This document shows positions 18,695 to 63,081 of a stretch of DNA of 64,000 nt, piece after piece. Under the pieces are notes generated by a model. It was not told the origin of the DNA. It made no database searches and worked only from the letters and a program-made list of their open reading frames with translations. The position numbers and the translations under genes were made by a program. This stretch comes from Heptranchias perlo (lineage: Eukaryota): contig NC_090358.1 of NCBI RefSeq assembly GCF_035084215.1, positions 8,494,001 through 8,558,000 on the forward strand, written 5' to 3'. How positions within the stretch are numbered: the stretch's first letter is position 1; each line of letters begins with the position of its first letter.

Positions 18695-20340
18695 TTGGTT
18701 AAGGGATGTGGGCATCGCCGACAAGGCCAGCAGTTATTGCACATCCCTAATTGCCCTTGAGAAGGTGGTGGTGAGCCGCCTTCTTAAACTGCTGCAGTCC
18801 AGTCCGTGTGGTGAAGGTTCTCCCACAGTTAGGTAGGGGGTTCCAGGATTTTGACCCAGGGACGATGAAGGAACAGCGAATTATTTCCAAGTCGGGATGG
18901 TGTGTGACTTGGAGGGGAACATGCAGGTGGTGTTGGATCCCACGTCCCGGCTGCCCTTGTCCTTCAAGGTGGTCGAGGTCGCGGGTTTGGGAGGTGCTGT
19001 CGAAGAGGTGTTGGCGAGTTGCTGCAGTGCATCCAGTAGATGGTATACACTGCAGCCACGGTGCGCCCGGTGGTGAAGGGAATGGATGTTTAGGGTGGTG
19101 GATGGGGTGCCAATCAAGTGGGCTGCCTTGTCCTGGATGGTGTCGAGCTTCTTGAGTGTTGTTGGAGCTGCACTCATCCAAGCAAGTGGAGAGTATTCCA
19201 TCACACTCCTGACTTGTGCCTTGTAGATGGTGGAAAGGCTCTGGGGAGTCAGGAGGTGAGTCACTCACCACAGAATACCCAGCCTCTGACCTGCTCTTGT
19301 AGCCACAGTATTTATGTGGCTGGTCCAGTTAAGTTTCTGGTCAACGGTGACCCCCAGGATGTTGATGGTGGGGGATTCGGCAATGGTAATGCCATTGAAT
19401 GTCTAGGGGAGGTGGTTAGACTCTCTCTTGTTGGAGATAGTCATTGCCTGGCACGAATGTTACTTGCCACTTATCAGCCTTAGCCTGGATGTTGTCCAGG
19501 TCTTGCTGCACGCGGGCACAGACTGCTTCATTATTTGAGGCGTTCCGAATGGAACTGAACACTATGCAATCATCAGCAAACATCCCCATTTCTGACCTTA
19601 TGATGGAGGGAAGGTCATTGATAAAGTAGCTGAAGATGGTTGGGCCTAGGACACTGCCCTGAGGAACTCCTGCAGCAATGTCCTGGGGCTGAGATGATTG
19701 GCCTCAACTACCACTACCATCTTCCTTTTGCTAGGTATGACTCCAGCCATTGGAGAGTTTTCCCCCCTGATTCCCATTGGCTTCAGTTTTATTATGGCTC
19801 CTTGGTGCCACACTCAGTCAAATGCTGCCTTGATGTCAAGTGCAGTCACTCTCACCTCTGGAATTCAGCTCTTTTGTCCATGTTTGGACCAAGGCTGTAA
19901 TGAGGTCTGGAGCAGAGTGGTTCTGGCGGAACCCAAATTGAGTATTGGTGAGCAGGTTATTGGTGAGTGCAGCTTGATAGCACTGTCGACGAAACCTTCC
20001 ATCACTTTGCTGATGATTGAGAGTAGACTGATGGGGTGGTAATTGGCCGGGTTGGATTTGTCCTGCTTTTTGTGGACAGGACATACCTGGTCAATTTTCT
20101 ACTTTGTCGGGTAGATGATGGTGTTGCAGCTGTACTGGAACAGCTTGGCTAGAGGTGCGGCTAGTTCTGGAGCACAAATCTTCAGCACTACAGCCGTGAT
20201 GTTGTCGGGGCCCATAGCCTTTGCTGTATCCAGTGCACTCAGCTGTTTCTTGCTATCCCGTGGAGTGAATCAAATTGGCTGAAGAATGGCTTCTGTGATG
20301 GTGGGGATCTTGGGAGGAGGCCGAGATGGATCATCCACTC
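18695..20340 (-). mobile_element. CR1-group LINE, 5'-truncated copy of the family at 37061-40377
   Basis: Reverse complement aligns to about 38610-40370 (VTHLLTPQSLSTIYKAQVRSVMEYSPLAWM); poly-T at the left end. Confidence 0.92.
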
Positions 20341-30981: not shown

Positions 30982-31180
30982 TTTGAGGCTGTAGTTTCTG
31001 AAGAACTGGCTGCATGCTCTTCACAGCCAGAGCAGTAGTTATTTTTATTCCTCTCTCAGAAACCTCACAAACTGATGCGACTACAGGATATTTGTCCTTG
31101 GTGTGGTTATAAGCATTGTAGAAGATGTCACAAGTGGAACTTACTGCCAGCAGGCTGCTGAACCTCTTTATGAAGTTCTC
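30982..31180 (-). CDS. PLIN1: Perilipin exon 3, PAT domain (ENFIKRFSSLLAVSSTCDIFYNAYNHTKDKYPVVASVCEVSERGIKITTALAVKSMQPVLQKLQPQ)
   Basis: Hand translation gives the perilipin PAT signature (Y..TK..YP.VASVCE..E.G); ttttatag acceptor, gtaag donor; 199 nt, phase 0/1. Confidence 0.93.
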
Positions 31181-34596: not shown

Positions 34597-34722
34597 AGAT
34601 GTACTTATTTAATGTCACTTATTCCACCCATCTCATTCTTGAAATATGAGTTTGCAACCTTTTGCAAACTCATATTTCAAGAATGAGATGGGTGGAATAA
34701 GTGACATTAAATAAGTACATCT
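34597..34722. repeat. Perfect inverted repeat, 61-bp arms, 4-nt spacer (cctt)
   Basis: 34597-34657 is the exact reverse complement of 34662-34722. Confidence 0.97.
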
Positions 34723-36706: not shown

Positions 36707-39700
36707 CCTTCAGGTACTCAAAAAGAAGTCCAATGACTTCATAAAGAACACCCCAGGAGGAAAGGATTTTAATTATTAGCTATGTTCCCACTGAGTGATA
36801 AGAAACTTGGGGTTTATATGTTGACCTCAAAGTTAACAAATACCAGACCGTTAAGAAATCTTTGATACGGTTATGGTTAAAGTCAACAAACAAGCATATG
36901 AGTGAAAAAATGGCCTAACCATAAGAAATTCTAGATACGATGCCTTGATGTTGCCATTAAGTAAAAGAAACAGCATCATATCACACAATTTAGAAATGTC
37001 TCAAATTGCTTTGCATACACTGCTTTACTTTGTTGTGCATTGACTGTTATGTGGGAAAATGTGGTAGCATAGTGGTTATATTACTGGACTAGTAATCCAG
37101 AGTCATGAGTTCAAATCCCGCCATGGCAGCTGGGGAATTTAAATTCAATTAAATAAAATCTGGAATTAAAATACTAGTGTCAGTAATGGTGGCCATGAAA
37201 CTACCGGATTGTTTTTTAAAAACCCATCTGGTTCACTAATGCCCTTTAGGGAAGGAAACCTGCCGTCCTTACCCAGTCTGGCCTATATGTGACTCCAGAC
37301 CCACAGCAATGTGGTTGATTCTTAATTGCCCTCTGAAATGGCCTAGCAAGCCACTCAGTTGTAAAATCTCACTAAAAGAAGTCATAATAAGAATAAAACC
37401 GGACGGACCACTAGGCACCGGACAGGACAAAGGCAAACCAAGCCCAGTTGACCCTGCAAAGTCCAAAATTGGGAGAGCTGTCCCACAGACTAGTCAAGCA
37501 ACAGCCTGACATAGCCATACTCACAGAATCATACCTTTCAGCCAACGTCCCAGACTCTTCCATCACCATCCCTGGGTATGTCCTGTCCCACCGGCAGGAC
37601 AGACCGACCAGAGGTGGCGGTACAGTGATATACAGTCAGGAGGGAGTGGCCCTGGGAGTCCTCAACATTGACTCTAGACCTCATGGCATCAGGTCAAACA
37701 TGGGCAAGGAAACCTCCTGCTGATTACCACCTACCGCTCTCCCTCAGCTGATGAATCAGTCCTCCTCCATGTTGAACACTACTTGGAGGAAGCACTGAGG
37801 GTAGCAAGGGCACAGAATGTACTCTGGGTGGGGGACTTCAATAATCATCACAAAGAGTAGCTCGGTAGCACCACTGCTGGCCGAGTCCTGAAGGACAGAG
37901 CTGCCAGACTGGGCCTGCGGCAGGTGGTGAGCGAACCAACACGAGGGAAAAACTTACTTGACCTCATCCTCGCCAATCTACCTGTCGCAGATGCATCTGT
38001 CCATGACAGTATTGGTAGGAGTGACCACCGCACAGTCCTCGTGGAGATGACGTCCCGTCTTAGCACTGAGGACACCATCCAACGTGTTGTGTGGCACCAC
38101 CACCGTGCTAAATGGGATAGATTCAGAACAGATCTAGCAGCTCAAAACTGGGCATTCATGAGGCGCTCTGGGCCATCAGCAGCAGCAGAATTGTATTCCA
38201 GCACAATCTGTAACCTCATGGCCCGGCATATTCCTCACTCTACCATTACCAACAAGCCAGGGGATCAACCCTGGTTCAATGAGGAGTGTAGAAGAGCATG
38301 CCAGGAGCAGCACCAGCCGTACCTAAAAATGAGGTGTCAACCTGGTGAAGCGACAACTCAGGACTACATGCATGCTAAACAGCGGAAGCAACATTCTATA
38401 GACAGAGCTAAGCGATTCCACAACCAACGGATCAGATCAAAGCTCTGCGGTCCTGCCACATCCAGTCGTGAATGGTGGTGGACAATTAAACAACTAACGG
38501 GAGGAGGAGGCTCTGCAAACATCCCCATCCTCAATGATGGCGGAATCCAGCACGTAAGTGTAAAAGACAAGGCTGAAGCGTTTGCAACCATCTTCAGCCA
38601 GAAGTGCCGAGTGGATGATCCATTTCGGCCTCCTCCCGATATCCCCACCATCACAGAAGCCAGTCTTCAGCCAATTCGATTCACTCCACGTGATATCAAG
38701 AAACGGCTGAGTGCACTGGATACAGCAAAGGCTATGTGCCCTGACAACATCCCTACTGTAGTGCTGAAGTATTGTGCTCCAGAACTAGCTGCGCCTCTAG
38801 CCAAGCTGTTCCAGTAGAGCTACAACACTGGCATCTACCCGACAATGTGGAAAATTGCCCAGGTATGTCCTGCCCACAAAAAGCAGGATCAAATCAATCC
38901 GGCCAATTAGCGCCCCATCAGTCTAATCTCGATCATCAGCAGAGTGATGGAAGGTATCGTCGACAGTGCTATCAAGCAGCACTTACTCACCAACAACCTG
39001 CTCACCAATGCTCAGTTTGGGTTCCACCAGGACCACTCGGCTCCAGACCTCATTACAGCCTTGGTCTAAACATGGACAAAAGAGCTGAATTCCAGAGGTG
39101 AGTTGAGAGTGACTGCCGTTGACATCAAGGCAGCATTTGACCGAGTGTGGCACCAAGGAGCCCTGGTAAAATCAAAGTCAATGGGAATCAGGGGGAAAAC
39201 TCTTCAGTGGCTGGAGTCATACCTAGCACAAAGGACGATGGTAGTGGTTGTTGGAGGCCAATCATCTCAGCCCCAGGGCATTGCTGCAGGAGTTCCTCAG
39301 GGCAGTGTCGTAAGCCCAACCATCTTCAGCTGCTTCATCAATGACCTTCCCTCCATCATAAGGTCAGAAATGGGGATGTTCGCTGATGATTGCATTGTGT
39401 TCAGTTCCATTCGCAACCCCTCAAATAATGAAGCAGTCCGAGCCCGCAAGCAGCAAGACCTGGACAACATCCAGGCTTGGGCTGATAAGTGGCAAGTAAC
39501 ATTCGCGCCAGACAAGTGTCAGGCAATGACCATCTCCAACAAGAGAGAGTCTAACCATCTCCCCTTGACATTCAACGGCATTACCATCGCCGAATCCCCC
39601 ACCATCAACATCCTGGGGGTGTGACCAGAAACTTAACTGGACCAGCCATATAAATACTGTGGCTACAAGAGCAGGTCAGAGGCTGGGTATTCTGCGGCGA

Positions 39701-40006
39701 GTGACTCACCTCCTGACTCCCCAAAGCCTTTCCACCATCTACAAGGCACAAGTCAGGAGTGTGATGGAATACTCTCCACTTGCCTGGATGAGTGCAGCTC
39801 CAACAACACTCAAGAAGCTCGACACCATCCTGGACAAAGCAGCCCGCTTGATTGGCACCCCATCCACCACCCTAAACATCACTCCCTTCACCACTGGCGC
39901 ACAGTGGCTGCAGTGTGTACCATCCACAGGATGCACTGCAGCAACTCACCAAGGCTTCTCTGACAGCACCTCCCAAACCCGCGACCTCTACTACTTAGAA
40001 GGAAAA

Positions 40007-40099
40007 ATAGTAGAGTTCACCTGACGAAGGAGGAAGCCTCCGAAAGCTTGTGAATTTAAAATAAAATTGCTGGACTATAACTTGGTGTTGTAAAATTGT
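40007..40099 (+). mobile_element. Short Penelope-like terminal-repeat insert nested in the LINE
   Basis: Absent from the paralogous LINE copy near 18960; flanked by the duplication ttagaaggaaaa; nearly identical to the insert at 61336-61478. Confidence 0.85.
40016..40054 (+). ncRNA. Minimal type I hammerhead ribozyme motif
   Basis: ttcac-CTGACGA-a-ggagg(aag)cctcc-GAAA-gc-tt-gtgaa: stem I ttcac/gtgaa, stem II ggagg/cctcc, palindromic AAGCTT in place of stem III. Confidence 0.75.
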
Positions 40100-43000
40100 T
40101 TAGAAGGAAAAGAGCAGCAGGTACATGGGAACAACACCACCTGCACGTTACCCTCCAAGTCACACACCATCCCGACTTGGAAATATATCGCCGTTCCTTC
40201 ATCGTTGCTGGGTCAAAATCCTGGAACTCCCTTCCTAACAGCACTGTGGGAGAACCTGCATCAGACGGACTGCGGCGGTTCAAAAAGGCGGCTTATTACT
40301 GCCTTCTCAATTAGGGATGGGCAATAAATGCCGGCCTCGCCAGCGAAGCCCATATCCCATGAACGAATAAAAAAAAACATGAATGACTAGGTTCTTTTTG
40401 ACATTGGGAGATGGAGGAATGTTGGCCAGGACATTGGGAGAACTCGCTGCCAAACATCAATAACTCTCTAAATATAGTAAAAAAAATAAAAGTACTGGAT
40501 ATAATAACTGGTCATTGTCATGTCGAGATTTGTGTGAAATTGTGATTGATTTTAACAAAATGTTGTGAGTAATATCTCAATATGGAAAACAAATTGGGTC
40601 ATTAATCAATCCAACAGTTTATTCTTAGCAAAAGTAGTAAAATATATGTAATCATGAGAATTTACAAACACATGAAAGTCCTTTAATGGTTACTACACAT
40701 TCAGATACTTTGAGAATGGATGGTTGCTTCAATAAGGGGACTTGTATATGTATCCGCCCAATTGCATGGGGCAGTTGTGTTAACGTACACAGTTCAAATG
40801 ACACAATCACTAAAGTATTCTGGGTTAATGATTATATCTTTGCCGACATTAGTTCAACTCCCTCACACTTTGAGTAAATAATCCCTTAAGGTCAGTTACT
40901 TAATTATATCACTGTTTAAATATAAATATTCTGAAAAAAATCAATAGACAGAAAATAAACAAACCAAAATGATAAAAGTTTATAGTAATCCTTTGTAACT
41001 GTTTCATTTTTCAAAAGGTTACTGAACTTGTTTATAATGTTTCAAAAAGCAAATAACATGCATAAAAGCAAAATCCTATGAAGAGAATGCATTCTCCTTT
41101 ACTATTGTCATACTATAAGTCACAACAGAAATAGATAACAGGTACCAGGATACCATGTGAAAACGGATTGCTTTTCATTCACCTAAGAGAAGGCATTGAC
41201 TAGCATGCAACATTGGCGAGCAGGGCTGAGGTGCTGTCAGATTCAATGGGTAATTGTCTCAGGCAGCTTTCCCCACGGGATTAAATTTGAATGTATGACC
41301 AGGAAAGTCAGATGACAGGGCAAATGGCTGCTGATTAGTTGGCGATTTTCCGTGGATTCAACATAGAAGTCTTCTATGTAATGGAGAAGCCCAAGAAATG
41401 GATTGGATGAAGCACTTGTAGTTTGTCCCTGGTGACAGATGATTCACAGGTCAGGAGAGCTTGTCCCATGACTGCTTGTCTTCACATACAAAAACCAAAT
41501 TGGCACTGGCTGTTTTGCACTAAGATGAAGACAAATTATATTTGCACAGATCTCTGTGTTTGGCATTGGTGGAGGCCCATGAGAAAGTCTTCTGCCTGCC
41601 CCCTCAGGCCACAGGTAGCTGGTAGTGTTGGGAGACCAGAGAACTAGGGAGGAAATACAGAGATATCACACCTCCACACAGAATAGAAAACAAAATGATG
41701 AAGCATCGATTTTTATAAAGGATCCTTTTGCAGACACATTTTAGAGTGGTGAATGTCTTTAAAAACATACTGTTATTGCCAAATTGATCATTGAAAGAAG
41801 GACTTGCATCTTAACATGTGTCTGAAACATCTTGACGTATAATTAATTACTTTGAATCACAGTGACTGTTATTAATATGCAAAATACAGCAGATATGATG
41901 TACTCATACACATGGGGGTAGACATTGGTCCTTTTTGCGCCTGTTTCAAGCCTATAAAAACGCCCGCAGTTTCTGCACGGAGTACCAGTATTAGAAATTT
42001 AGGTCTGCCATACATACCTTCTCAGGTTCAATGACGTCAGTCACTCCCATAATACTTCTAATGGGAGTTGACTCGCAACCTGGGGGTGTAACAATAATGC
42101 CCCCTTATGACATGAATGTTGGTGTCTTTTGCACACGTACTCCTTCAATCTCTTCAAAGGTAGACACAACAGGTGTGAGGTGTGTTGTTTTTTTGATTAC
42201 TTAGGCAAGCCAACAAATCGCTTAATATTGTGTCTCTGGAGGAAACAACTTCCATTTAGCGTATGCACCACTTTTCATCTAGGTGTGTTTCTTAAAAGTT
42301 GTGAGAATACACTTTGCTTAAAAATCCCACCATTAAAAGTAACTTTTTATTTCAATTTTTTTCTGTGGAAAATAGTCAAGAAATCCTGAAAAATGACAGT
42401 CAGCTAAATTGTATCATCGGATCCTGGAATGGGGCTCGAACCCACAACCTTCTGACTCAGAAACAAAATTGCTACTGCACCTACTGATAGCAAAAATCTG
42501 CACTAAATACTAATGGTACGGCTTCAGGCATGGCTTCTCCTGCCTGTGGAATTCTCTCTCAGTGACGTCACCTGGAACTTTATCCATTTTGCAAAAGAGT
42601 TCTAGAGACAGAGTTAACCATCACTTGCTGAACTATAGCTGTTGAGCACGTATGAGACTATTGCAAAACCCAAGTAATCTATTTCAGAGCCTTTCTGCAC
42701 TCTCAGTAAGCACTAGGATCAAATTAATCAGACCTCTGTCCTTGTTACTGTTGCCTCTGGCTGTACCTTGGTTACTATGCTGTTTAAAAATACATAGAAA
42801 CAAAACAAAATAAGTAAAAGTGGTCTAATGTTTACAAATTGTTACAGACTTTGTCAAACAGCAGTTGCTTCAATGATGTTATGACTGGGCTTCTGTTGAC
42901 CAGTTGGACTCTATTGTATGATCTGCCATCCATCAAAACAACAGAGGAGCCAGTTTCCATGGAGATTTCCACTTGGGACATGACATGGAATGCAAGCATG

Positions 43001-51647: not shown

Positions 51648-52225
51648 TCATGGTCTCAATTTTAGTGCTGGGTGCGTCAAAGTTAGAATTGAGAGAATGG
51701 AGGAAACAAGACCACAGAGACCCACCACGCCAGGATTGGTTTTGTAAATGCCTAGTTTGTCTAATGGAATGGTGAGGTCACAGAGATTTTTAACAATGTC
51801 GAGTAGTACAGGAGGATTGCTCTTAAGGCTTTGAAAAAGCAGTATGAAGAAAGCTTCAGTCTTGACCCTTGCTGTCCAGACAAACTCTCTCTGCATGTGA
51901 TTATTTTCCAGGTGGTTTATGGATTTGCACTGTTGTTCCTTCTGGGCGAGTGCTTCTTCTTTCAGGAGCTGGACAATCTCATAGACATCTCTGCTCAGGT
52001 TGATAATCAACGAGAAGAAATAGTAGTGGTTGCACCGCTTGTTCCATTTCTCCTTGTCTATATCACTAAGCCCCACCACTCCCACCCAGAGGATATTATC
52101 ACAGATGAAGTACAGAGCCCGACTGAGAGGAACGACTGTGAGATAAAAACGAAGCACTGGGTCTGAGAGCTGAACGTTCCTTCTGGCTGTCTGAACTGCA
52201 TCGAATGTGTTACCTAACCGGAATA
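51648..52225 (-). CDS. PEX11A: PEX11A exon 3 (LFRLGN...HPALKLRP*), peroxisomal membrane protein 11A, 249 aa in total
   Basis: FRLGN, RALYFICDNILW, P.LLD.VKNLCD..IPLDKLG and a C-terminal hydrophobic segment; 56+116+578=750 nt; three-exon structure and position between PLIN1 and WDR93 indicate the A paralogue. Confidence 0.95.
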
Positions 52226-52489
52226 CTGAAATAAAGCAGAGAGGATTTAATACAGCACAAGCCTTTACCAGTTGGCAATGACAAACATAAAAATAAAATG
52301 ATTCTGGGTGAGGCACTAACAATTTAAATAAAGGCAGGTTTTCTCTGGTTGAGCTTTCAGAAGCTAAATCTCTTCCACCTGCAGTACCATACATTAGAGG
52401 CCGTTTATATATTAGTAACTACTTACTAGCCAGTTTTATCATTTGACCATAAGAGAGAGAATGTCAGTGTTGATTACAGGTTGAAATCT

Positions 52490-59782: not shown

Positions 59783-60043
59783 ATGCTAGACTACCTTAAG
59801 AAATCTCTGGAAGTTCCAACTTCTTCTGAACATAATTGGAGTGACGATGACGAAAATGACTATTATCTGAAGGATCCAGATCAGAGGCTTGATGAGTTGC
59901 CCCAACCTTTCAGGATGATTGATAAATTAATCAGCTGCATCATAGAGAGTGCTTTTGAAAGCATTGAAGAACGTGAAGCAAAAAGAAAAGCCGAAAGAGT
60001 AAAGATAAAACCACCTACTCGTGAATCATCAGAGGAAATTCAG
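59783..60043 (+). CDS. WDR93: WDR93 first coding exon (MLDYLKKSLEVPTSSEHNWSDDDENDYYLKDPDQRLDELPQPFRMIDKL...EEIQ)
   Basis: LEVP...W..DD..DY..KDPDQ.LD.LPQP.RMI.KL matches the WDR93 N-terminus; acceptor at 59744, donor gtgggt, phase 0. Confidence 0.92.
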
Positions 60044-60389
60044 GTGGGTGAGTGTGTGCGGTAATCTTGCAAACTTCATTGTTCAATTGTGCATACTAAT
60101 CATAGAATGTTACAACACAAAAACAAGCCATTTGGCTCATCAAGTCTACTTCAGTTTTAATCTCAACATGAGCCACCTAATCCCACTCTCCTCGCTCCCC
60201 ATATGACTTAATATTTGTTTTTTTCACATTCTTTTTCTTTTATATTATTTTCTCCCCTACTTAAAAGACGCTGGCTGTTGCTGGGATACAGCTCCATGGG
60301 CACCAGCAGCCCTACAGTACCTCACCCAAATGTCTGTTTGTTACATGTGAGGTAGATAAGGGGTAGCTGTAATTATTAATGTTACTTAT

Positions 60390-60889: not shown

Positions 60890-61091
60890 CTTCCTAGCAA
60901 TTTAAACTGTCTAGCAAATTTTGTGGCTGAAAGTTCTATCTTTGCTGGTCTGTCTGATGGAGTGGCAGCTCTGAACATGAAGGATCATACAGTTACTTCA
61001 GTTTGGAAGGAGGAAGGTGTTGAGATTGTTGCACTTCAAGTAACGCACGCTGGAGGTCAGCTTTGTCTGCACGCTGCTGTGGATGACATGG
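60890..61091 (+). CDS. WDR93: WDR93 next exon (LPSNLNCLANFVAESSIFAGLSDG...AAVDDM)
   Basis: ctttttgaacag acceptor, gtattt donor, 202 nt, phase 0/1; WD-like strands ending VDDMG. Confidence 0.88.
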
Positions 61092-61335
61092 GTATTTATC
61101 TGAAAATATTTATTATGTAATTGTATTTTTTCCCCCAAGATTTCTCTCCTTCTGTTTGCAAGGCTCTGATTCCTTGCTGGCTTCTGTTTACTTTGTCGTT
61201 CTTAATGTGCAAATTTATGCAGTGAGTATCAGCAGGCCATTTACTTGCAAGGGGTATCATAGCTAAACCTGATCCTGCCCCTACCTGATAGCCACACAAA
61301 TGCACTTTCCAACAGGAGTCACTGTATTATTAGAA

Positions 61336-61478
61336 TGATGTGGAGATGCCGGTGATGGACTGGGGTTGACAATTGTAAACAATTTTACAACACCAAGTTA
61401 TAGTCCAGCAATTTTATTTTAAATTCACAAGCTTTCGGAGACTTCCTCCTTCCTCAGGTAAATGTTCAGGTCAGGTTA
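61336..61478 (-). mobile_element. Short Penelope-like terminal-repeat insert in a WDR93 intron
   Basis: Flanked by the 12-bp duplication gtattattagaa (61324-61335, 61479-61490); about 85 bp nearly identical to 40016-40102. Confidence 0.85.
61424..61462 (-). ncRNA. Minimal type I hammerhead ribozyme motif, second copy
   Basis: Minus strand tttac-CTGAGGA-a-ggagg(aag)tctcc-GAAA-gc-tt-gtgaa; differences from copy 1 fall at the free N7 position or give G-U wobbles. Confidence 0.72.
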
Positions 61479-63016
61479 GTATTATTAGAAGGGGAACCTT
61501 GGCTGCATTTTCCCATCCCAGTCCCAAGAGCATAGAGGACAACTGTAATGCCTTAACTTCTGCTGCAACCAATATTAGCTAACTCAGCACAAACCTTCCT
61601 GGTTTGTAAGGATAGACGGTATTTATCTTAAATCAAGGATACCATTAATTTCATGGGGAAGCGGCTGTTTCTCTTGCAATAGTCTATTGACAATATGATT
61701 TGAGGTACAAGTGCAATTGCCCATTATACAAATGGTGCAACTTGTTTAGCTGTCCCTCTCTCTTGCATTAGGGAAGCATATTTTTGTACCATGCTACAAA
61801 GAATGGGCTGAGCGGTGGTAATGTGGGCCCTGAAGTATGCTGTAGTCATTTTATTAGAATTGAGGAGGAGCACTATTGTCCATCCCTGCCATCTACATGA
61901 CACTTAGGAACATTCTACAAGTGCTGCAGTTTTCAGACAATGTCCACACTGAGATGCAGTGCCAGGTGTGAATAGTCAGTTTCATCAAATTTACACCCAG
62001 ATTTCAAAACTGAAATTGCAAATAAATAAATTGCTGATTTTTAAAAATATCTATCTGCTTCTGTACCAAGTTTTGTAATTAACAAAGTTTTGGAGCACAG
62101 CAACATAGTCTGCTTGGAGCTCCAGGCCAAAACTGCAACTATGTTAGTTTTTTGTGTGTTTCAGAGCACTAATTAGATAGAAATTGTGTTTCCTCCACAT
62201 GTATCTCTCTAAATGTTCTGTTAATAGCAAGTTTATTCATTTATTTGCTTGGGTCTTTTTCAAAGCTCCACTAAAGCAGCACTGTTTGAGATAAGAGAAT
62301 GCCTAATTGGTAACCCCTGGGGCTTGTTATGCATACAGGGTATGATAGGGTATTTGTTCATCTTTTCCCGTCATTGGCTCTGCACTCTTAAATTGTAAAA
62401 TGACATTTCTAGTGACAGCTAATTACTCCCCATGAATTATCGTGCCATTCGTGAAGCGTTTGCTACAACAGATCATCCTTGTGCATCCTGGAACAACTCC
62501 ATTATTGCATTCCCAGCCTATAGCATGATTTCCGGAGGTCTGGTGGCTCCAGAGTGTCACCAGAGCAGTCCAAAGTCATACTTTCCTTACTGTTGTTTGC
62601 AACGGAGCTGCGCTAGGACACTCCCCATAATGGGAGCAACCTAGCACGTGGGGAGATCTCACTCAAGGGTCCCCAGTTCGGTGCTAAAATAGCAATTTAA
62701 AACGAAACATCAAATAAGAATATAATTGTAATAAAGATGGACTATTTTGAATGCAAATATATTTTCTTACCATTTATCTTTTCTTTATCTTTCAGATACT
62801 GACTGACCTGCTGTGCATTTTCCAGCATTTTCTGTTTTCATTGTAGACTTCCAGCATTCACACTTTCTTTTTATTCTGCATCCTTTACATTACAAAGGAA
62901 TTTATAATACATTATTCTAGTGCTTCACTCCCACCATACACATCTTTTTCTCTTCAAGAATTACTTCATTTGTATTTTGTGACTTAATCCCTTGTTTCTC
63001 TCCTTTTGTATTTTAG

Positions 63017-63081
63017 GTGTTGCACGTCTCTTTTTTTCTTATGGTGACATTTTTTCCTTGGTAAAAGTTCTCAATGCATTT
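63017..63081 (+). CDS. WDR93: WDR93 next exon (GVARLFFSYGDIFSLVKVLNAF); gene continues beyond the window
   Basis: ttttgtattttag / gtaagt, 65 nt, phase 1/0; G..RLF and LVK..N pattern. Confidence 0.85.

What the first reader, a model, noticed from the sequence alone, without database searches (positions are those of the whole stretch)
61324..61490. Second hammerhead-bearing insert, with structure-preserving substitutions, antisense in a WDR93 intron
Seen: an independent copy on the minus strand. Its three differences from copy 1 within the motif are C to G at the variable N7 position and two C to U changes that leave G-U pairs in stems I and II, so the fold is retained. It has an extra roughly 40 nt (acaattgtcaaccccagtccatcaccggcatctccacatc). 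Inference: compatible with structural constraint in the source elements. The antisense orientation spares WDR93 pre-mRNA, as purifying selection against sense insertions would predict.
Basis: partly seen in the sequence, partly recalled or inferred. Interest (0 to 1): 0.7.

Follow-up and report, generated by a model that had tools for sequence, protein, structure and literature searches.

The report
Penelope retrotransposon fragment with hammerhead ribozyme
This is one of tens of thousands of short leftovers of an intact Penelope-type jumping gene; it carries a known minimal self-cutting RNA motif that is likely inert here, and a small sample of introns shows no significant preference for the antisense direction, so it is ordinary.

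Summary
61336-61470 (-) is a 135-nt insertion between 12-bp target-site duplications, antisense in a WDR93 intron. It matches, but for one gap in 136 columns, the terminal repeat (pLTR) of an intact Neptune-type Penelope-like element with a 902-aa RT/GIY-YIG frame. The hammerhead is the published minimal PLE motif; the extra ~40 nt is the published 'tail' between two 3' end sites (65 of 68 pieces end at one of them). Copy 2's exact motif occurs 2,921 times, so its differences are inherited from source elements. Constraint on sources is supported: 0 of 12 recurrent but 11 of 14 rare alleles break the fold; true covariation is essentially one pair. In 1.75 Mb inside four large genes, intact hammerheads were 16 sense and 22 antisense (p = 0.42): no strong bias, a weak one not excluded. 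No piece starts at the cleavage site (0 of 68). Cleavage itself was not testable. New member of a known kind.

The parts
61336..61470 (-). solo pLTR plus tail of a Neptune-type Penelope-like element, 135 nt, ending on the A of the element's start codon (that A could also be target-derived)
   Evidence: 135 of 136 columns identical to the pLTR in front of an intact 902-aa frame at L226
61423..61463 (-). minimal type I hammerhead motif: stem I 6 bp, CUGAGGA (C3 at 61457), bulged A, stem II 5 bp, GAAA, palindromic GC in place of helix III, UU; predicted cut between 61429 and 61428
   Evidence: architecture as in PMC4209133
61413..61418 (-). AATAAA hexamer of the pLTR (possible poly(A) signal, untested)
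   Evidence: sequence; position -82 from the ATG
61336..61372 (-). the ~37-nt 'tail' between the two preferred 3' end sites; absent from copy 1
   Evidence: bimodal 3' ends, 33 and 32 of 68 pieces; PMC11167929
61471..61478 (-). 8-nt junction filler between target duplication and element, not in the source-type pLTR
61324..61335 (.). target-site duplication, 12 bp (3' side of the element)
61479..61490 (.). target-site duplication, 12 bp (5' side of the element)
61092..63016 (+). WDR93 intron that holds the insertion, 1925 nt, GT..AG
   Evidence: spliced contig in run X3; splice sites
60890..61091 (+). WDR93 coding exon upstream of the insertion
   Evidence: Pfam PF21030, E 2.6e-6
40007..40099 (+). 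copy 1: tail-less solo pLTR of another subfamily, between 12-bp duplications (39995-40006, 40100-40111), inserted into a copy of a longer repeat whose sister copy at 18828-20340 shows the empty site

Best explanation
This is a 135-nt solo terminal repeat of an intact Penelope-like retrotransposon family, likely inserted by that element's own enzyme and likely a neutral, promoter-less passenger whose hammerhead motif is predicted not to cut WDR93 RNA. Shown: identity to the pLTR of a full-length element with RT and GIY-YIG; 12-bp target duplication; tens of thousands of motif copies; two preferred 3' ends, 37 nt apart, the second at the start codon; 5' ends piled 15-50 nt behind a TATA-like box that the solo copies lack; none at the hammerhead cut site. 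Inferred: full-length tandem elements are transcribed from just behind that TATA box; the endonuclease nicks the target with about a 12-nt stagger; reverse transcription starts internally at one of the two sites in the first pLTR of the uncut RNA and runs to the RNA's 5' end, so the commonest product is this short piece, with the tail (copy 2) or without (copy 1). The hammerhead fold is under selection in the replicating source elements, where tandem units and the element's protein would allow cutting; after insertion it decays. On the WDR93 transcript the insertion reads as the reverse complement, so no hammerhead is present there.
For: Source element: L226 pLTR 99.3% over 136 columns, 902-aa frame directly behind the tail; tandem pLTR-ORF-pLTR units of about 3.08 kb at L061, L062; RVT_1 E 3.3e-10, GIY-YIG E 3.5e-4, 21.2 bits, just under the 22.6 cut-off. 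Copy number: 29,804 matches of a 32-nt motif pattern, 14,742 of the tail 30-mer, 2,921 of copy 2's exact motif, 0 for the reversed controls; counts include both halves of inverted pairs. Ends: 3' ends at -45..-30 in 33 and at -6..+2 in 32 of 68 pieces; 5' ends at -145..-115 in 43 of 68, 2 of 68 at -169..-146, 0 of 68 at the cut site; TATA-like box at -157 to -168 in 7 of 8 reference pLTRs. Duplications of 7-16 bp found at 29 of 42 insertions, 12 of them 12 bp. Constraint. Orientation. Literature: internal initiation at two sites bounding the tail, uncut RNA as main substrate, protein-assisted cleavage (PMC11167929); no cleavage by a single minimal motif (PMC4209133).
Against: The transcription start is inferred from a TATA-like box and the pile-up of 5' ends; no RNA ends could be read (only contigs). 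5' ends spread over 30 nt and 13 of 68 are shorter, 10 of 68 much longer, so ordinary truncation also occurs. The orientation sample leans antisense (58% of intact motifs; 95% interval 41-74%), and both pLTR pieces found in WDR93 introns are antisense, so a weak bias is not excluded. The biochemical model comes from a Poseidon-clade element whose hammerhead and tail lie inside the ORF; here they lie upstream of it.
Confidence: 0.85

Rival explanations
1. One reading: the motif cuts pre-mRNA when sense, so sense intronic insertions are purged and the surviving antisense copy reflects host selection.
For: This copy and a second fragment in WDR93 are antisense; intact motifs lean antisense, 22 of 38, and 5 of 6 unpaired ones in the C5 gene.
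Against: 16 intact sense motifs, 7 without an inverted partner, sit in introns of four genes; p 0.42 and 0.63; the C3 gene has 4 sense, 3 antisense unpaired. The second WDR93 fragment lacks the CUGA box, so its direction cannot be due to cleavage. Single minimal motifs did not cleave in vitro (PMC4209133). Introns cut by a slow hammerhead were still spliced, as reported second-hand in PMC2995048. The AATAAA in the same piece would give an antisense lean without any ribozyme (inference).
Confidence: 0.12
2. Same element, but solo copies are just extreme 5' truncations of cDNA begun at a downstream unit, with no role for the RNA's 5' end.
For: Longer truncated copies exist: 7 ORF pieces in 1.6 Mb and 10 of 68 pieces reaching beyond -170; heavy 5' truncation is the standard description of PLEs (PMC8557442).
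Against: 43 of 68 5' ends fall in a 31-nt window behind the TATA-like box and only 2 in the 24 nt before it. A stop of the polymerase at the hammerhead's stem I could give a similar pile-up and was not excluded.
Confidence: 0.25
3. A self-propagating non-autonomous element (retrozyme or SINE-like) that replicates through hammerhead-cut monomers or circles.
For: Very high copy number and discrete subfamilies; PLE-derived retrozymes are reported in vertebrates (bioRxiv 10.64898/2026.07.22.740005).
Against: No piece starts at the cut site (0 of 68); no tandem arrays of the short unit in the 42 insertions; the solo copy lacks the TATA-like box and matches the pLTR of an intact element but for one gap; no helix III.
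Confidence: 0.04

Closest known systems
Minimal type I hammerheads of metazoan Penelope-like elements (Cervera and De la Pena 2014, PMC4209133)
   Same: In the pLTR; no helix III, palindromic 15.2-16.2; unpaired base between positions 9 and 10.1; G10.1-C11.1 pair; thousands of dispersed single copies and close inverted pairs; subfamilies with compensatory changes.
   Different: Copy number here (about 30,000 for one pattern) is above the 4,000 and 9,000 quoted for coelacanth and Xenopus; sequence variation here is low.
Poseidon element of Anolis, PAc (Frangieh et al. 2024, PMC11167929)
   Same: Two initiation sites 30-40 nt apart bounding the tail; insertions end at either; no RNA or insertion ends at the hammerhead cut site.
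   Different: In PAc the ORF starts inside the hammerhead and the tail lies within the ORF; here the cut site is 92 nt upstream of the ATG and the tail ends at the ATG. The protein here has the CX2-5CxxC linker that Penelope/Poseidon lack.
Neptune-type EN+ PLEs (Craig et al. 2021, PMC8557442)
   Same: Single ORF, RT then C-terminal GIY-YIG with two cysteines between the motifs, CX2-5CxxC linker, partial tandems, inverted 5' copies, 30-40 bp tail.
   Different: Clade placement rests on motifs only; no tree with reference PLEs was built.
Non-LTR retrozymes of animals (bioRxiv 10.64898/2026.07.22.740005)
   Same: Hammerhead-bearing, pLTR-related, non-coding, dispersed monomers known.
   Different: Retrozymes are tandem units; this piece is single, bounded by target duplications and not by cut sites.

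Membership tests
EN+ Penelope-like element (source family) | single ORF with RT domain | tested here: met
   902-aa frame, RVT_1 E 3.3e-10, over cut-off
EN+ Penelope-like element (source family) | [quoted passage not shown] | tested here: met
   PF01541 E 3.5e-4, 21.2 bits against cut-off 22.6; motif with both cysteines read directly
EN+ Penelope-like element (source family) | pLTRs from partial tandems; inverted 5' copies | tested here: met
   L061, L062, L226; 25 of 42 insertions carry both orientations
EN+ Penelope-like element (source family) | optional 30-40 bp tail | tested here: met
   33 and 32 of 68 3' ends at two sites about 37 nt apart
EN+ Penelope-like element (source family) | target-site duplication | tested here: met
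   12 bp at both window copies; 29 of 42 insertions
Neptune group | CX2-5CxxC linker before the endonuclease | tested here: met
   one such motif at residue 753; feature from PMC8557442
Neptune group | RT phylogeny with reference Neptune elements | not tested
   no reference PLE proteins were fetched
Minimal type I hammerhead | intact core boxes, stems I and II, palindromic 15.2-16.2, U-H cut site | tested here: met
Minimal type I hammerhead | covariation in the helices | tested here: inconclusive
   92.3% of cells paired, 15 cells changed on both sides (0 of 500 shuffles), but 12 of the 15 at one pair; pairs with double change 3, reached by 153 of 500 shuffles
Minimal type I hammerhead | self-cleavage | not testable with these tools
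   only contigs were available, which cannot show RNA ends
Non-LTR retrozyme | tandem units delimited by the hammerhead cut site | tested here: not met
   0 of 68 pieces start at the cut site; no tandem array of the short unit among 42 insertions

The most novel reading that the evidence does not exclude
Tens of thousands of intronic copies form a genome-wide set of latent cut sites: sense copies are silent alone but are cleaved when active PLE RNA or protein supplies the dimer partner, so transposon activity would clip host pre-mRNAs and leave the mild antisense excess seen here (22 against 16).
Probability: 0.1. Interest if true: 0.6.

Novelty: new member of a known kind. Interest (0 to 1): 0.2.

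Why it matters
As a single insertion it does not matter: it is one of thousands of identical copies. The family is of modest use to specialists: a young, very abundant PLE with intact frames, whose insertion ends fit the internal-initiation model in a second clade and in a different layout (tail ending at the start codon, 5' ends behind a TATA-like box, none at the ribozyme cut). With an annotation, its copy number would allow a well-powered test of whether PLE hammerheads ever cut host transcripts, an open question; six paper searches listed no paper reporting such a sense/antisense test.

Tried and rejected
Rfam scan of the whole window: no match at gathering threshold; the motif was identified by anatomy. 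RNA evidence for cleavage: no RNA holder on record listed; four runs of one sample, RNA only by guess, kept as contigs; these cannot show ends or strand, so nothing is concluded from depth or from the empty table of ends. Earlier findings of the scan: none by sequence. Pfam gave no hit for the first coding exon candidate (59783-60046) or the exon at 63017; the latter is tied in by the spliced contig. The atlas look-up of the endonuclease part returned no result. A first count of 5' ends against one reference was biased by subfamily divergence (29 starts at -122) and was redone with eight references. Whether copy 1 is intronic could not be settled: it lies between the PEX11 exon at 51648-52418 (-) and the first Perilipin-domain exon at 30983-31180 (-). 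R-scape was not available; stands in. No structure prediction or tree was run. Supplements of PMC4209133 and of the preprint were not read; they may list this or a related family.

Full report
Observation. The minus strand at 61463-61423 carries a minimal type I hammerhead motif, and the window holds only one other, at 40015-40055 on +. Rfam finds neither. All are compatible with the fold; by my weighting the chance is 2-5% for three and 0.7-2% for four. Copy 2 is the weaker fold, no better than shuffles (z -0.51 against -3.31). Each copy lies between 12-bp duplications, and copy 1's empty site is visible in a sister repeat. The host is WDR93 on +: Pfam hit on the upstream exon, further exons in order downstream, and a contig that splices out 61092-63016. 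So the insertion is intronic and antisense.

What it is. The genome (3.25 Gb) holds 29,804 matches to a pattern covering both motifs, 14,742 to the tail ending in ATG and 2,921 to copy 2's exact 41-nt motif. Of the first 30 tail loci, five or six continue into shared sequence. [quoted passage not shown] By the features given in PMC8557442 (passages) this is an EN+ Penelope-like element of Neptune type; no tree was built. One full-length element, L226, has a pLTR that matches the window insert in 135 of 136 columns and a frame 9 residues different from that of L061. The insert is therefore a solo pLTR, and its substitutions come from a source subfamily.

The extra 40 nt. In 175 stretches of 10 kb chosen without regard to the element, 68 pLTR pieces ended either at -45..-30 (33) or at -6..+2 (32) relative to the start codon; 3 ended elsewhere. 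Copy 1 ends at the first site, copy 2 at the second. This is the PLE tail; PMC11167929 (first two of four parts read) showed in vitro that it is the stretch between two internal start sites of reverse transcription. 5' ends fell at -145..-115 in 43 of 68, at -169..-146 in 2, further upstream in 10, further downstream in 13, and at the hammerhead cut site in none; 7 of 8 reference pLTRs have a TATA-like box at -157 to -168. I infer that most insertions are copies from an internal start site to the 5' end of an uncut transcript, which leaves the promoter behind. Stalling at the hammerhead stem is an untested alternative.

Structural constraint. From 132 motif rows, 7 duplicates and 16 junction, chimeric or indel rows were dropped, leaving 109. 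In the 35 inner columns, none of 12 alleles seen in three or more copies breaks the core or inner stems, while 11 of 14 alleles seen once or twice do (p 5e-5). Caveats: opening of the loop-closing pair was counted as tolerated (13 copies); part of the sample was chosen by similarity to the query; recurrent alleles are inherited, so each counts as about one event. On 45 of the 68 distinct haplotypes (23 with junctions or an indel left out), 92.3% of cells pair, but double-sided change is concentrated at one pair (G-C 26, A-U 10, C-G 2) and the number of such pairs does not beat shuffles (153 of 500). The constraint acts on replicating sources; inserted copies decay.

Orientation. I took 1.75 Mb lying between same-strand CUB-domain exons in four large genes (the names CSMD-like and cubilin-like are recalled from architecture; nested genes not excluded; T-A skew is +0.022 to +0.033 on the assumed sense strand in all four). 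In the first 1.6 Mb, 42 insertions were 8 sense only, 9 antisense only and 25 both. In the full set, motifs were 26 sense and 31 antisense; intact ones 16 and 22 (p 0.42; antisense share 41-74%); intact without inverted partner 7 and 10 (p 0.63; 33-82%). Strong purging is excluded, a weak lean is not. A weak lean would not single out the ribozyme, since the piece also carries AATAAA. PMC4209133 (first two of four parts read) reports no cleavage by a single minimal motif; PMC11167929 reports protein-assisted cleavage and no RNA ends at the cut site; PMC2995048 (passages) relays that introns cut by a slow hammerhead were still spliced. The retrozyme preprint (abstract, part 1 of results, discussion) reports depletion from introns but, in what I read, no strand test. 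PMC3846280 (passages) describes solo pLTRs, tails, duplications and a TATA box in rotifer PLEs.

Verdict. Real, well explained, ordinary: a new member of a known element class with a known ribozyme motif. Cleavage activity and the transcription start remain untested.

Noticed in passing
L063:8019-8135 (-), about 8 kb beyond the window end: A third pLTR piece between WDR93 exons, antisense, lacking the CUGA box.
   Followed up: partly
G000:C43:5444372-5444584 (-): A second WDR93-family match that scores better than the window's own exon: a paralogue or duplicate.
   Followed up: no
window 18828-20340 and 38609-40239: Two inverted copies, 86-97% alike, of a longer LINE-like repeat (label recalled, not tested); copy 1 of the pLTR is inserted in the second.
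   Followed up: partly
window 34597-34722: Perfect 61-bp inverted repeat with 4 nt between the arms.
   Followed up: no
window 51648-52418 (-) and 30983-31180 (-): PEX11 and Perilipin exons upstream of WDR93 on the opposite strand.
   Followed up: partly
L061:1254-3992: A rearranged element in which an inverted 5' part gives a 912-codon open frame with a different N-terminus.
   Followed up: no
L048-L051: Several pLTR insertions sit in a tandem, AG-rich satellite-like repeat on contig C1.
   Followed up: no
G000:C12:5.38-7.30 Mb (-): Seven similar half-CUB exons spaced about 300 kb apart, perhaps a very large tandem duplication.
   Followed up: no
L206-L225 (C2 gene): G-C skew of +0.13 on the sense strand, against about 0 in the other three genes; unexplained, possibly a skewed repeat.
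   Followed up: no
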